From the NCBI GenBank assembly GCA_018895015.1, contig JAHIOX010000027.1, positions 1 through 58,940 on the forward strand: DNA of 58,940 bases. The letters are read 5' to 3'. The notes beneath the pieces were generated by a model. The model was given only the letters and a program-made list of their open reading frames with translations. It was not told the DNA's origin and made no database searches. The DNA is from Patescibacteria group bacterium. GTDB lineage: Bacteria; Patescibacteriota; Minisyncoccia; UBA9983. Made by a program: the position numbers and the translations under genes. Numbering within the stretch: the stretch's first letter is position 1; every line of letters starts with the position of its first letter. This document shows positions 52,253 through 56,476 of this stretch, piece after piece.

Positions 52253-52912
52253 ATGGCTAAAAAAGTCGCAGGCGAATTATATGAAAGTATCACTGGTCAG
52301 TTGTTTGAAATCGGTCGCCAGTTAAGGCAACCGAAGGGGTATCCTTTTGATCCAGGGGTTTTACAGAAATACCTTCAAAATGCAATTGAAGGAAGATTCA
52401 ATCAAGTTATTAAAGTTGTTACTCCTGATGATAAAATTCTTGAGTTCGTGAGTACTGTTACTGTTTCAGCGACAACTAAAAAATTTGTTGTCCGGGATTA
52501 TGTCCAGAAACTACGAAAAACAAAAAATGTATATGCTAGTAGCAATTTCGAGAAATTGTTTTTTGATAAAACCGTAGAGCCAATTTCCGAGCAAGAACTC
52601 AATTATCACAAATTGACCAAAAACTCAGTGGATGGACCCATTATTGATGAGCTCGGTGGCGAAGCCAAAGTTGAAACCACTTTGGCTGAAATGTTTAGCC
52701 TCATAGCACTGCAGCCAAATGGCGAGGATGGGGTATCGCTTACTAATGGATACGCGAATGTCTTCTATATTCGCGACGTGGTTGGCGTGCTTCGTGCGGT
52801 CTGCTGCTACTGGCACGATGTCGGCTGGAACCTGAGCGCCTTCTCGGTTGAGCTTCCGTATGCGTGGTACGATGGCCGCCAGGTCTTCTCCCGCAATTCC
52901 TGTGAATCTTAG
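52253..52912 (+). CDS. DGR target protein with C-terminal variable region (CLec-like fold expected)
   Basis: 219 aa; 3' end contains VR and ends GRQVFSRNSCES. Confidence 0.92.
   Translation: MAKKVAGELYESITGQLFEIGRQLRQPKGYPFDPGVLQKYLQNAIEGRFNQVIKVVTPDDKILEFVSTVTVSATTKKFVVRDYVQKLRKTKNVYASSNFEKLFFDKTVEPISEQELNYHKLTKNSVDGPIIDELGGEAKVETTLAEMFSLIALQPNGEDGVSLTNGYANVFYIRDVVGVLRAVCCYWHDVGWNLSAFSVELPYAWYDGRQVFSRNSCES
52779..52903 (+). repeat. DGR variable repeat (VR)
   Basis: 125-nt ungapped match to 53236-53360; 14 mismatches, 13 opposite TR adenines. Confidence 0.95.
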
Positions 52913-53235: not shown

Positions 53236-53360
53236 TGGTTGGCGTGCTTCGTGCGGTCTGCTGCAACTGGAACGATGACGGCTGGAACCTGAACGCCAAC
53301 TCGGTTGAGAATCCGAATGCGTGGAACGATGGCAACCAGGTCTTCTCCCGAAACTCCTGT
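53236..53360 (+). ncRNA. DGR template repeat (TR)
   Basis: 26 adenines including 10 AAC/AAT codons in the VR frame; first 29 nt contain no A. Confidence 0.93.
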
Positions 53361-53376
53361 ATTGTATTTCTCCCGT

Positions 53377-53691
53377 TTAATTAGCGAGAGTTTTATTTTT
53401 CAGTCCCTTTTTCCATCCGCCGAACATTTTACCGATTTCCTCCAGTTTTTCTGATATTGCAGCGTAATGTTTATGGGATATAAATTTTGTTTCCCATGAT
53501 ATATAAATTAGAAATTTTAAAGTATCAAGAGAAAGAATGCATTGAGAGATTTTTTCCATTTTCTTTTCTCTTTCTGTAAAATAGGCAATATATGAAAATT
53601 CCAACAAATCAAGGAATTTATTTTCAATTCTGGCGCCGATAGTAAATCGGCTGCTTCTAGGAATATGATGGACCACACTAATCCATATCAA
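53377..53691 (-). CDS. avd: Avd-like four-helix-bundle accessory protein (N-terminus appears frame-disrupted)
   Basis: RFTIGARIENKFLDLL and EIGKMFGGW motifs; frame stays open upstream (NSASILQRIKEGY) with no in-frame start. Confidence 0.85.
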   Translation of the reverse strand: MIWISVVHHIPRSSRFTIGARIENKFLDLLEFSYIAYFTEREKKMEKISQCILSLDTLKFLIYISWETKFISHKHYAAISEKLEEIGKMFGGWKKGLKNKTLAN

Positions 53692-53701
53692 ATATCCCTC
53701 T

Positions 53702-54730
53702 TTGATTCTTTGGAGAATAGACGCGCTATTACGAGAGAGAGAGAGAGTAAAACGGCTTTGTCATATCTATAATGATATCATATCCGTTGAGAATCTGCTC
53801 GTTTCTTGGCAAGAATTTTTAAGAGGAAAAAGAAAACGGAAAGATATCGCGGAATTTTCTCTGCATTTTATGGATAACATTATTGCGCTCCAAAAAGAAC
53901 TTTTGAATAAAACATATAAACATGGCGAATATCAGGCATTTAAAATAAACGATCCCAGACCAAGAAATATTCATAAAGCCAGCGTGCGAGACAGATTAGT
54001 TCACCATGCCATTTACAGAATTTTATATCCGTTTTTTGACAAAAAATTCGTATCAGATTCTTTTTCTTGCAGGTTAGACAAAGGCACGCACAAAGCAATA
54101 AACAGATTTAGGAAATTTTATTACAAAGTCAGTAAAAACAGCACAAAAACTTGCTGGATTCTGAAATGCGACATCAGAAAGTTTTTTGCCAACATCAATC
54201 ACGGAATACTGAAAAATATTTTAGCAGAATATATTGGCGATAAAGATACCCTTTGGCTTCTGGGACAAGTGATAGATAGTTTTCGCACTGAAAACAAAAT
54301 TGGCGTCGGACTTCCACTTGGCAACCTAACTTCTCAATTATTTGTGAATATCTATATGAATGAGTTTGACCAGTTTGTTAAGTATAAACTAAAAGCCAAA
54401 TATTACATCAGATACTGCGATGATTTCGTTATTCTTTCGGAAGATAAAAGATATCTGCAAAATATCATTCCGTTTATCAGAGAGTTTTTGGACAGAGAAC
54501 TGAAACTTGAATTGCATCCTGATAAGGTTTCAATAAAAACTATGGCATCCGGAGTTGATTTTCTTGGCTGGATCAATTTTACCGACCACAGGATTTTGCG
54601 GACAACTACAAAAAGAAGAATGATTAAAAGAATAAAAATAAATAATTCTATAGAAACGATTAATTCATATCTAGGATTATTGGGTCACGGGAATACGAAT
54701 AAATTAAAGAAAGAAATTTTATTTTGTTAG
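53702..54730 (+). CDS. DGR reverse transcriptase
   Basis: RDRLVHHA, LKCDIRKFF, GLPLGNLTSQ, YIRYCDDF, GVDFLG; no maturase, endonuclease or RNase H domain; start uncertain. Confidence 0.94.
   Translation: MILWRIDALLRERERVKRLCHIYNDIISVENLLVSWQEFLRGKRKRKDIAEFSLHFMDNIIALQKELLNKTYKHGEYQAFKINDPRPRNIHKASVRDRLVHHAIYRILYPFFDKKFVSDSFSCRLDKGTHKAINRFRKFYYKVSKNSTKTCWILKCDIRKFFANINHGILKNILAEYIGDKDTLWLLGQVIDSFRTENKIGVGLPLGNLTSQLFVNIYMNEFDQFVKYKLKAKYYIRYCDDFVILSEDKRYLQNIIPFIREFLDRELKLELHPDKVSIKTMASGVDFLGWINFTDHRILRTTTKRRMIKRIKINNSIETINSYLGLLGHGNTNKLKKEILFC
53733..53747. repeat. (GA)7G simple-sequence tract at the avd/RT 5' overlap
   Basis: GAGAGAGAGAGAGAG read directly. Confidence 0.9.
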
Positions 54731-54748
54731 TGTTATAATTAATTTATT

Positions 54749-56476
54749 ATGAAGCAATGGGTTTTACGGGAGGAAATTCTTGGGAAAATAAATAAAGAAT
54801 TGGAGCAATGGCCGGAATTGGTTCGGCGGCTTTTATTTTATAGGGGTATAAAAACCAAAATAGAGGCGGAAAAATTTTTTAATCCGGATTATGAAAAAGA
54901 TTTGCATGACCCGTTTGAGATTTTAAATATGGAAAAGGCGGCTGGACGGATTTTGAAAGCGATCAAAGAAAATGAAAGAATAATTATTTTCGGAGATTAT
55001 GACGCGGACGGCGTTTGCGCCAGCGCCATTTTTCACGATTTTTTCAAGAAAATAGGATTTGAAAATTTTCATGTTCATATACCTGACAGGCATCTTGACG
55101 GCTATGGCCTTACGGTAGAGGCGATAAAGGAGTTTGCGGAACAAAAGGCCGGATTGCTGATAACTCTTGATTGCGGAATTACCGACTATGAAGAAGTTGA
55201 AAAGGCCAATTTTTTTGGGATTGATGTAATTATAACCGACCATCATCTTGTGCCGAAAAAATTGCCGAATGCTTTTGCCATTATTGATTCCAAGCAAAAG
55301 AAGGATGATTACTTTTTTAAGGATTTATGCGGAGCAGGGGTGGCGTTTAAGACAGTTCACGCGCTTATTAAAAAAGGCGGATTTAATATAGTCCATGGAT
55401 GGGAAAAATGGCTTTTGGATACTGTTGCCATAGCCACGATAGCAGACATGGTTCCGCTTGTTGGCGAAAATAGAGTTCTCGCTCATTATGGATTGCAGGT
55501 TTTGAAAAAGACGCAGCGCATGGGCCTTGTTTCGCTTTGCAAAAGGCTTGGAATAGCGCTTCTTAATGTTACAGAAGATGATATTGCTTTTATGATTGGC
55601 CCGAGAATAAATACTGCCAGCAGGATGGACCATGCCACGGCAAGTTTTACTCTTTTGACAACGCAGTCGGGCGGCGAAGCAAGCTGGGTCAGCGCCCGCT
55701 TGGAAGCGTTGAATGTTGATAGAAAAGCTATGGTGGAAGAAATTTTAAGCGGCATTGAGGAAAAAATTTCGGCTTATGGCGCTAAAATTCCGGGAGTAAT
55801 TGTGTGCGGCGATTTTAATTGGCATCCCGGCGTTTTGGGAATTGCCGCGAATCGGCTTATTGATAAATACGGGCGTCCGATTTTTTTGTGGGGGAAAGCG
55901 GAAGCAAAAGAGATCAAGGGTTCATGCCGCAGTAATGGTTCTATAAATTTGGTTGAATTGATGCGGAAAACGGCAAAAGGTTTTTTTAGTGATTTCGGAG
56001 GCCATGCTTTGGCCGGCGGCTTTTCTTTGGCTGAAGAAAAAATGCCGGATTTAGAAAAAGAAATTTTAAAAGCTTGGGAAAAAGCTTCAAAAGAAAAAAC
56101 AGAAAATAATACTATTTTTATTGATAAGGAAATTTCCATTGACGATATAAGCTGGGATTTTTATTCCATGATAGAAAAATTCCAGCCATTTGGCATTGAA
56201 AATCCCAAGCCTGTTTTTTTATTTTCAGGCGCGGAAGTCGTTGGAGTAAAAAAGTTTGGGAACAATGGCATACATATTCAAGTAGATTTTAAAAAATCTC
56301 CGTCATCTGGCGGAGATGAGATTGTTCCCGCGATAGGATTTTTCTTTAACGGCAATTTGGCGGACGTTAAAAAAGGTTCGCGCGTTGATCTTGCCGCGTC
56401 ATTGGAAAAATCATTTTTCAAGCCGAAGCCCGAATTGCGCTTGCGAATAATAGATATTAAACTAAAATCACAATGA
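54749..56476 (+). CDS. recJ: ssDNA-specific exonuclease RecJ
   Basis: GDYDADG, ITLDCG, TDHH, ADMVPL, GPRINTASR, KGSCRS, GGHALAGG; TGTTATAAT at 54731-54739. Confidence 0.96.
   Translation: MKQWVLREEILGKINKELEQWPELVRRLLFYRGIKTKIEAEKFFNPDYEKDLHDPFEILNMEKAAGRILKAIKENERIIIFGDYDADGVCASAIFHDFFKKIGFENFHVHIPDRHLDGYGLTVEAIKEFAEQKAGLLITLDCGITDYEEVEKANFFGIDVIITDHHLVPKKLPNAFAIIDSKQKKDDYFFKDLCGAGVAFKTVHALIKKGGFNIVHGWEKWLLDTVAIATIADMVPLVGENRVLAHYGLQVLKKTQRMGLVSLCKRLGIALLNVTEDDIAFMIGPRINTASRMDHATASFTLLTTQSGGEASWVSARLEALNVDRKAMVEEILSGIEEKISAYGAKIPGVIVCGDFNWHPGVLGIAANRLIDKYGRPIFLWGKAEAKEIKGSCRSNGSINLVELMRKTAKGFFSDFGGHALAGGFSLAEEKMPDLEKEILKAWEKASKEKTENNTIFIDKEISIDDISWDFYSMIEKFQPFGIENPKPVFLFSGAEVVGVKKFGNNGIHIQVDFKKSPSSGGDEIVPAIGFFFNGNLADVKKGSRVDLAASLEKSFFKPKPELRLRIIDIKLKSQ

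What the first reader, a model, noticed from the sequence alone, without database searches (positions are those of the whole stretch)
53691..53764. (GA)n tract predicted to be a shared on/off switch for overlapping avd and RT genes
Seen: avd (minus) and RT (plus) overlap head-to-head across (GA)7G. As assembled, ATG 53764 reads MTKPFYSLSLS-stop, out of frame with avd. The avd frame has no start before TTG 53691 and so loses NSASILQRIKEGY, while RT is in frame only from TTG 53702. Adding one GA unit fuses ATG 53764 to avd (MTKPFYSLSLSRNSASILQRIK...) and puts TTG 53710 in frame with RT (MENRRAITRERERVKRL...). Removing one unit leaves neither gene with a start across the tract. Inference: slipped-strand phase variation gating hypermutation, a control layer I do not know to be described. 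An assembly error in the tract is the main alternative.
Basis: partly seen in the sequence, partly recalled or inferred. Interest (0 to 1): 0.92.

Follow-up and report, generated by a model that had tools for sequence, protein, structure and literature searches.

The report
Repeat-tract on/off switch in a DGR
A slippery (GA)n repeat lies where the two core genes of a bacterial targeted-mutation machine overlap head to head; its length differs between natural populations and decides whether both genes can be read, so it probably switches self-mutation on and off at random.

Summary
(GA)7G at 53733-53747 lies in the overlapping 5' ends of avd (minus strand) and the DGR reverse transcriptase (plus strand). 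It is not an assembly error: five independent groundwater samples assemble (GA)7. A sixth sample, otherwise identical over about 20 kb, holds (GA)9 and (GA)10 side by side.

Of 137 related Patescibacteria DGRs, 131 (96%) carry a simple repeat at the same spot: poly-G, (GA)n or (GT)n. Only about one third are in frame. All six relatives without a repeat are in frame (p = 0.002).

In the window and 55 similar loci the RT has no ATG after the tract. It uses an ATG upstream of the tract instead. Because each gene's ATG is the antisense of an in-frame His codon of the other gene, one length rule (n = 8, 11, 14) restores both genes.

The VR exists as two alleles that differ at 18 template adenines in otherwise identical genomes. 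The DGR was therefore active recently, although every consensus tract seen (7, 9, 10) is off.

Best reading: slipped-strand phase variation gating hypermutation. Effects on expression are inferred, not shown. I found no published description; earlier notes of this scan report the poly-G form.

The parts
53733..53747 (.). (GA)7G simple-sequence repeat. It reads as (TC)n = Ser-Leu repeats in the avd sense and as Arg-Glu repeats in the RT sense. This is the proposed switch.
   Evidence: Length polymorphism (7 versus 9 and 10) between samples with identical flanks.
53377..53764 (-). avd. The full coding span runs from ATG 53764 when n = 8, 11 or 14. As assembled (n = 7) the ATG frame stops after 11 codons, and only a 104-aa product from TTG 53691 is left.
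   Evidence: Pfam bAvd PF22296, E 3.7e-16. Frames. Homologues start M-x-x-P-F-x-(SL)n-..ASILQRIKEGY. The AF2 model puts helix 1 at ORF residues 15-30, so the TTG product loses 9 of its 16 residues.
53762..53764 (-). avd start codon ATG, the antisense of the in-frame RT His codon CAT (in ..KRLCHIY..).
   Evidence: The position is conserved in relatives.
53665..54730 (+). DGR reverse transcriptase. The ON-state CDS starts at ATG 53665/53668, which is the antisense of the Avd His-His codons. As assembled, the ORF starts at TTG 53702.
   Evidence: RVT_1, E 1.8e-23. Frames. A conserved upstream ATG, open into the tract, is present in 52 of 56 loci that lack an RT ATG after the tract, against 13 of 75 loci that have one.
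53659..53662 (+). AGGA, a possible Shine-Dalgarno for RT ATG 53668. AGGAATATG is the antisense of the conserved Avd motif His-Ile-Pro.
   Evidence: Read directly from the sequence. Function is inferred only.
53236..53360 (+). Template repeat (TR).
52779..52903 (+). Variable repeat (VR) at the 3' end of the target gene 52253-52912. Two natural alleles differ at 18 positions, all of them TR adenines.

Best explanation
The (GA)n tract is a hypermutable simple-sequence repeat placed in the head-to-head overlapping 5' coding ends of avd and the DGR reverse transcriptase.

Slipped-strand mispairing during replication adds or removes GA units (shown at the DNA level). Because the unit is 2 nt, each step moves both reading frames.

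Only lengths with n = 2 mod 3 (8, 11, 14) join the conserved avd ATG 53764 to the Avd core and, at the same time, the conserved RT ATG 53665/53668 to the RT core. The rule is the same for both genes because each ATG is the antisense of an in-frame His codon of the other gene (shown by sequence geometry and by comparison of relatives).

In the other two phases Avd loses more than half of helix 1, including invariant residues. The RT has either a doubtful TTG start or none. Mutagenic retrohoming is then presumably off (inferred).

The population would therefore consist mostly of cells with a fixed VR, plus a small, stochastic and heritable but reversible fraction that diversifies its target protein (inferred).
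For: (1) (GA)7 is real. Five independent samples give contigs with 0 differences across the tract.

(2) Sample X6 matches the window over 19.9 kb except for one SNP that all the runs share. Its assembly graph breaks exactly at the tract, and it holds (GA)9 at 11.3x and (GA)10 at 5.7x against flanks of 28-29x.

(3) A simple repeat lies at the same spot in 131 of 137 non-redundant relatives, but its type differs: poly-G in 95, GA in 30, GT in 6. What is conserved is therefore repetitiveness, not a peptide or a motif.

(4) avd is in frame in 44 of 131 tract-bearing loci, which is the random third. It is in frame in 6 of 6 tract-less loci (Fisher p = 0.0019).

(5) The in-frame share falls as the tract gets longer: G6-8 11/23, G9 10/23, G10-13 10/49.

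(6) Near-identical pairs differ only in tract length and state. L027 and L120 have flanks 99.7-100% identical, with GT tracts of 19 nt (off) and 17 nt (on). L020 and L107 have G11 (off) and G10 (on).

(7) ASILQRIKEGY, upstream of TTG 53691, is at least 90% conserved, and K20 and Y23 are invariant. It forms the first half of helix 1 in the model. The tract-coded residues fall in a disordered leader.

(8) An upstream RT ATG in the coupled frame is present in 52 of 56 loci without a downstream RT ATG, against 13 of 75 with one (p = 3e-19).

(9) VR alleles A and B differ at 18 of 18 TR adenines in otherwise identical genomes, so the DGR was active recently.
Against: - No transcript, protein or activity data exist (no RNA runs).
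- None of the alleles seen for this strain (7, 9, 10) is a predicted ON length. About 11x of the depth in X6 is unaccounted for and could not be read.
- (GA)7 is the same in five samples, and no minor allele survives in the contigs even at 69x, so switching is not extremely fast. Logan contigs do drop rare variants.
- An in-frame share of one third is also what frame-independent decoding would give.
- In the n = 7 state the RT still has an in-frame TTG at 53702, so the RT may not be fully off.
- The relatives share ancestry, so the locus counts are not fully independent.
Confidence: 0.62

Rival explanations
1. Frame-independent decoding. The tract is a recoding site. RNA polymerase slippage, or ribosomal +1/-2 slippage on the CU repeat, yields some in-frame avd (and RT) product whatever the DNA length. 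The tract would then set a low expression level and would not act as an on/off switch.
For: The in-frame share among tract-bearing loci is exactly the random third (44 of 131), as expected if frame does not matter. avd and RT are otherwise intact in essentially all relatives. The DGR was active recently although all consensus alleles seen are out of frame. Long homopolymers of 9-13 nt, as in most relatives, are known substrates for transcriptional slippage (my own knowledge).
Against: There is no RNA evidence. The window's tract is a dinucleotide repeat of only 15 nt, and I know of no efficient bacterial RNA polymerase slippage on such repeats. Length change at the DNA level is seen directly, so a DNA switch needs no extra assumption. 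The two mechanisms do not exclude each other.
Confidence: 0.2
2. A microsatellite with no regulatory role. Either Avd starts downstream of the tract (TTG 53691 or a near-cognate codon such as ATT in SIL), or the cassette is drifting into decay. The repeat persists through mutational bias at this G-rich junction.
For: Many off-state relatives have an in-frame TTG, GTG or ATG shortly after the tract. The in-frame share is no higher than chance.
Against: All six tract-less relatives are in frame with the upstream ATG. That would be expected only one time in three if this ATG were irrelevant. The residues between the tract and TTG 53691 are conserved as protein, and two are invariant. In the window no canonical start lies between the tract and these residues. 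The repeat is kept in 96% of loci although its unit type changes. The Leu codon after the tract is not consistently TTG. The VR was diversified recently.
Confidence: 0.12
3. An assembly or sequencing error: the true tract is (GA)8 and both genes are simply intact.
For: Dinucleotide repeats are prone to stutter.
Against: Five independent runs give (GA)7 in k=31 contigs that span the 15-nt tract whole, at depths of 7x to 69x with 0 differences. Gene calls on four independent contigs give the 104-aa Avd, and on the three that reach the RT gene the 342-aa RT of the n = 7 state. X6 shows 9 and 10 units, and neither 7 nor 8.
Confidence: 0.03

Closest known systems
Intragenic SSR contingency loci (poly-G/C tracts of Campylobacter jejuni, and homopolymer or tetranucleotide tracts of Neisseria and Haemophilus; e.g. 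PMC6321876, PMC5084427, PMC3315296)
   Same: A non-triplet repeat lies in the 5' coding region. Its length varies between near-clonal populations. On and off states are mixed across genomes. The repeat-coded peptide sits in a tolerant N-terminal leader.
   Different: The gated product is not a surface structure or a restriction-modification enzyme. It is the machinery of a second, programmed hypermutation system. One tract lies in two genes at once, on opposite strands, and gates both with one length rule. The hosts are uncultured groundwater Patescibacteria, not host-adapted pathogens.
Bordetella phage BPP-1 DGR (mtd-avd-TR-brt; the bAvd-bRT complex, PMC6182149, PMC7826257)
   Same: An RT plus an Avd of the bAvd family, a TR/VR pair, and adenine-specific mutagenesis.
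   Different: In BPP-1, avd, TR and brt point the same way, do not overlap, and have no repeat tract. Here avd lies antisense between TR and RT and overlaps the RT head to head by about 100 nt across a simple repeat.
DGR architecture B3 of candidate phyla radiation bacteria (Wu et al. 2018, PMC5758913)
   Same: The same gene order and orientation. [quoted passage not shown]
   Different: That survey mentions no homopolymer, repeat tract or frame problem in avd.
Phasevarions (phase-variable DNA methyltransferases whose SSR switches a whole regulon; my own knowledge)
   Same: A simple repeat in one gene stochastically switches a system that itself generates population diversity.
   Different: Phasevarions change epigenetic regulation. 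Here the switch would control targeted rewriting of the DNA sequence of a protein-coding gene.

Membership tests
Diversity-generating retroelement (CPR type, TR-(avd)-RT) | A reverse transcriptase gene next to a template repeat | tested here: met
   RVT_1, E 1.8e-23. The TR (53236-53360) lies 305 nt upstream of the RT ATG at 53665. There are 573 RT relatives in genome contigs, and the 80 best were kept.
Diversity-generating retroelement (CPR type, TR-(avd)-RT) | A TR/VR pair whose differences lie at TR adenines | tested here: met
   Of 14 mismatches over 125 nt, 13 are at TR adenines. The two natural VR alleles differ at 18 of 18 TR adenines.
Diversity-generating retroelement (CPR type, TR-(avd)-RT) | An Avd accessory protein (four-helix bundle, bAvd family) | tested here: met
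   Pfam PF22296 at 60 bits against a cut-off of 40. The AF2 model is helical. The Foldseek match to bAvd 4dwl is weak only (E 1.2, TM 0.44-0.50). A PDB sequence search found nothing.
SSR-mediated phase-variable (contingency) locus | A non-triplet simple repeat inside the reading frame or the promoter | tested here: met
   (GA)7G lies between the avd ATG and the conserved Avd core, and between the RT ATG and the RT core.
SSR-mediated phase-variable (contingency) locus | Tract length varies within or between otherwise identical populations | tested here: met
   The tract has 7 units in five samples. X6 holds 9 and 10 units together, with one shared SNP and no other indel over 19.9 kb. Near-identical pairs of relatives differ in tract length.
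SSR-mediated phase-variable (contingency) locus | A length change switches the gene product on or off | tested here: inconclusive
   The frame consequences are shown in silico. They are supported by 6 of 6 tract-less loci being in frame. No expression data could be had.
SSR-mediated phase-variable (contingency) locus | High-frequency, reversible switching in clonal lineages | not testable with these tools
   Only assembled contigs are served for these runs. There is no culture and there are no raw reads.
SSR-mediated phase-variable (contingency) locus | The repeat is kept at the same site in homologues, with variable length | tested here: met
   131 of 137 loci carry a repeat: poly-G of 6-13 nt, GA of 10-40 nt, GT of 17-27 nt.
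Programmed transcriptional slippage / recoding site | Heterogeneous RNA tract length, or a frameshifted product, from one DNA length | not testable with these tools
   No RNA run holds the stretch.

The most novel reading that the evidence does not exclude
A large clade of Patescibacteria DGRs carries a built-in 'mutator of the mutator'. One hypermutable repeat lies in the head-to-head overlap of avd and RT, where each start codon is the antisense of a His codon of the other gene. It gates both genes with a single length rule.

Lineages would pass briefly through the ON length, rewrite their variable protein, and then slip out of frame again, which locks the new variant. In this strain the ON length n = 8 lies one step from each of the observed OFF alleles 7 and 9. 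The repeat itself would be kept by second-order selection for evolvability.
Probability: 0.45. Interest if true: 0.9.

Novelty: new variant of a known kind. Interest (0 to 1): 0.78.

Why it matters
How DGR activity is controlled in nature is largely unknown, and unrestrained targeted hypermutation should be costly once a good variant has been found.

A stochastic, heritable and reversible repeat switch on Avd and RT would be a simple answer for the DGR-rich candidate phyla radiation. It would couple two different localized-hypermutation mechanisms in a hierarchy.

It also has practical consequences:
- Gene callers truncate or mis-start avd and RT in about two thirds of these loci.
- DGR activity surveys in metagenomes should be stratified by tract phase.
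- The two-gene, one-tract antisense overlap is a compact design that could be tested and reused in engineered DGR mutagenesis systems.

Tried and rejected
- Assembly error: rejected by five independent assemblies of (GA)7 and by the 9/10 polymorphism in X6.
- Non-coding leader: rejected by the conservation of ASILQRIKEGY and by 6 of 6 tract-less loci being in frame.
- A conserved TTG start just after the tract in poly-G loci: rejected, because that Leu codon is not consistently TTG.
- The tract as a Shine-Dalgarno for the RT: unlikely. In most poly-G loci the ATG lies 14-21 nt after the tract, and the window has no ATG after the tract at all.
- Promoter scan: 5 weak sites against 2.8 +/- 1.8 expected, so uninformative.
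- Structure: Foldseek against the PDB gave no significant hit, and the PDB sequence search gave none.
- RNA runs: none.
- The metagenome scan gave relatives of at most 71% identity, so no further alleles of this strain were found.
About 11x of the X6 depth therefore stays unread.
Mismatch-repair genes and further DGRs in this genome could not be checked.
- Paul et al. 2017, the CPR DGR survey, is not held in the library.

Full report
**1. What is in the window**

The window holds a complete DGR of the type common in candidate phyla radiation bacteria.
- The target gene is 52253-52912 (+), with the VR at 52779-52903.
- The TR is at 53236-53360 (+).
- avd lies on the minus strand, starting from 53377.
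- The RT ORF, as assembled, is 53702-54730 (+).
- The avd product matches Pfam bAvd (E 3.7e-16) and the RT matches RVT_1 (E 1.8e-23).
- TR and VR differ at 14 of 125 positions, 13 of them TR adenines.

**2. The observation**

(GA)7G occupies 53733-53747. It is unique in the window, none is expected by chance, and it is the only long simple repeat in 58.9 kb.

On the minus strand, ATG 53764 reads MTKPFYSLSLS and then stops. The avd frame is open from just after that ATG. It reads QSRFTLSLSRNSASILQRIKEGY before the first possible start, TTG 53691.

An in-silico length series gives three phases.
- n = 2 mod 3 (8, 11, 14): Avd is whole from ATG 53764 and RT is whole from ATG 53665/53668.
- n = 1 mod 3 (7, 10, 13): Avd is cut to 104 aa, and RT reads from TTG 53702.
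- n = 0 mod 3 (6, 9, 12): Avd is cut to 104 aa, and RT has only an internal 286-aa ORF.

The one addition is that the ON frame of the RT holds a proper ATG pair at 53665/53668, preceded by AGGA, and not only TTG 53710.

**3. Is (GA)7 an assembly error? No.**

Public groundwater metagenomes hold the stretch. They are served only as Logan contigs.

Five independent samples (X1, X2, X3 = X4, X5, X7) give contigs that cross the tract with no difference, at depths of 7x to 69x. Gene calls on four of these independent contigs give the 104-aa Avd, and on the three that reach the RT gene the 342-aa RT, as expected for n = 7.

In X6 the assembly graph breaks exactly at the tract. One contig ends, and the next begins, four letters beyond the (GA)7G match. 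Short unitigs with the same flanks carry +GAGA, that is (GA)9, at 11.3x, and +GAGAGA, that is (GA)10, at 5.7x. The flanks are at 28-29x, and there is no (GA)7 or (GA)8.

About 11x is unaccounted for. Tracts of 11 or more units would fall below the tool's 80% likeness floor, so I could not read them.

Over 19.9 kb, X6 and X2 differ from the window only by one SNP that all the runs share, by the VR, and by this tract. There is no other indel. The tract is thus a true hot spot for length change at the DNA level.

It is not wildly unstable, since (GA)7 is the only allele kept in the contigs of five samples.

A second, diverged DGR in X1, X2 and X5 carries about (GA)13 at the same place.

**4. The DGR was active recently**

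Two VR alleles exist in this otherwise identical background.
- Allele A equals the window's VR. It is found in X6 and as a minor allele in X2 (6.9x).
- Allele B is the major allele in X2 (12.9x) and is also found in X3, X5 and X7.

The two differ at 18 positions, and every one is a TR adenine. Mutagenic retrohoming has therefore happened within this population. Yet every consensus tract seen (7, 9, 10) is a predicted OFF length. The ON length 8 lies one step from both 7 and 9.

**5. Relatives**

Avd homologues of about 130 aa very often begin M-x-x-P-F-x-(SL)n-..ASILQRIKEGY, with variable n. Others are cut to 103-104 aa, like the window's product, or have odd N-terminal extensions.

I fetched 160 loci through RT relatives of 59-75% identity. 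Of these, 137 are non-redundant and hold both genes in the same divergent arrangement.

A simple repeat lies at the junction in 131 of the 137 (96%):
- poly-G of 6-13 nt in 95 loci;
- (GA)n of 10-40 nt in 30 loci;
- (GT)n of 17-27 nt in 6 loci.

The coded peptide differs with the unit (Pro, Ser-Leu or Thr-His runs). What is conserved is therefore repetitiveness at this position.

**6. Frame census**

avd is in frame with an ATG beyond the tract in 44 of 131 tract-bearing loci (34%), which is indistinguishable from one third.

The control is decisive for the gene model. All six loci that lack a tract have avd in frame with the upstream ATG (Fisher p = 0.0019). The ATG beyond the tract is therefore the true start, and reading through the tract position is the functional arrangement. 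The out-of-frame states are caused by the tract.

The in-frame share falls with tract length: G6-8 11/23, G9 10/23, G10-13 10/49. This fits a picture in which mutation pressure scrambles the frame more as the tract becomes more slippery.

Near-identical pairs differ in tract length and in state.
- L027 and L120 have flanks 99.7-100% identical, with GT tracts of 19 nt (off) and 17 nt (on).
- L020 and L107 have G11 (off) and G10 (on).

**7. Is the switch shared with the RT?**

There are two classes of locus.
- In 75 loci, mostly poly-G, an RT ATG lies after the tract, so only avd reads through it.
- In 56 loci, which include the window and nearly all GA loci, no RT ATG follows the tract.

In the second class, a plus-strand ATG lies mostly 52-82 nt before the tract, open into it, in 52 of the 56 loci. 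The same is true of only 13 of the 75 loci in the first class (p = 3e-19).

Wherever both ATGs were found (51 of the 56 loci), the frame offset of this ATG to the RT core equals the offset of the avd ATG to the Avd core. The reason is geometric. Each ATG is the antisense of an in-frame His codon (CAT) of the other gene. In the window these are Avd His-His at 53665-53670 and RT His at 53762-53764. Any tract length that restores one gene therefore restores the other.

The two tract-less loci of this class (L067, L095) have both genes in frame.

**8. What the OFF product lacks**

The residues ASILQRIKEGY, upstream of TTG 53691, are at least 90% conserved, and K20 and Y23 are invariant.

An AlphaFold2 model (pLDDT 73.9) places helix 1 at residues 15-30 of the avd-frame ORF. 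The TTG product would therefore lose 9 of its 16 residues. The tract-coded residues lie in a disordered leader.

The fold search was inconclusive. bAvd 4dwl ranks third, at E 1.2.

**9. Interpretation**

The best-supported reading is slipped-strand phase variation of a contingency-type repeat that gates Avd and, in this locus class, the RT. It would thereby gate mutagenic retrohoming.

Shown:
- the tract and its frame consequences;
- length polymorphism at the DNA level in nature;
- conservation of a repeat at this site;
- the in-frame rule in tract-less loci;
- the coupled frame geometry;
- recent DGR activity.

Inferred:
- that off-frame alleles lack functional Avd and RT;
- that switching is frequent and reversible;
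- that the arrangement is adaptive.

The main rival is frame-independent decoding by RNA polymerase or ribosome slippage. It predicts the same random third and cannot be excluded without RNA or protein data. The two mechanisms could also act together.

**10. Novelty**

Five full-text searches found no paper that links DGRs with homopolymer, repeat-tract or phase-variable control of avd or RT. The large survey of Wu et al. (PMC5758913) describes the B3 architecture of CPR DGRs but mentions no repeat. Paul et al. 2017 could not be read.

Earlier notes of this scan report the poly-G form in other genomes and read it the same way. I reached the poly-G observation on my own before reading them.

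This window adds three things:
- the dinucleotide (GA)n form;
- direct evidence of within-sample and between-sample length change in an otherwise identical 20-kb background;
- the tract-less control.

**Limits**

Only contigs were available, not reads. There is no culture.

Noticed in passing
window 52779-52903: Two natural VR alleles exist in otherwise identical genomes. Allele A (the window's) is in X6 and is a minor allele in X2 (6.9x). Allele B is the major allele in X2 (12.9x) and is also in X3, X5 and X7. All 18 differences lie at TR adenines. Both alleles coexist in sample X2.
   Followed up: yes
window 53690-53744 (relative's contigs in runs X1, X2, X5): A second, diverged DGR lives in the same groundwater samples, at depths of 4.3x, 11.4x and 3.3x. 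It shows 5 mismatches in 55 nt on the avd side, carries about (GA)13 at the same junction, and has a different RT-side flank (TAGAAGTTCCGCGCG).
   Followed up: partly
window 53659-53670: AGGAATATGATG on the plus strand (a Shine-Dalgarno-like AGGA followed by the RT ATG pair) is the exact antisense of the conserved Avd motif His-His-Ile-Pro. One protein motif thus doubles as the other gene's translation start signal.
   Followed up: partly
window 43876: All four runs that were laid read A where the window has G. This is either a variant private to the window's assembly or an error.
   Followed up: no
window 55764-56041: In X6 the contigs break into short unitigs (164, 35 and 139 nt, at 18-24x) inside the recJ-like gene. 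This suggests a second polymorphic site in that sample.
   Followed up: no
window 53574-53579: In X5 the contigs break inside avd, away from the tract. I did not look for the cause.
   Followed up: no
L012 2970-3000; L014 2419-2435; L095 junction: Some relatives have interrupted or decayed GA tracts (for example GAGAGAGAGATAGAGAGAGAGGGAGAGAGG). L014 and L095 are in frame with the conserved ATG, and L012 only with an ATG further upstream. Interruption may lock the switch on.
   Followed up: partly
window 53361-53700: avd lies antisense in the stretch directly 3' of the TR. In the Bordetella phage DGR the equivalent stretch supplies the priming spacer RNA. The TR-RT transcript would therefore be antisense to the avd mRNA.
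   Followed up: no
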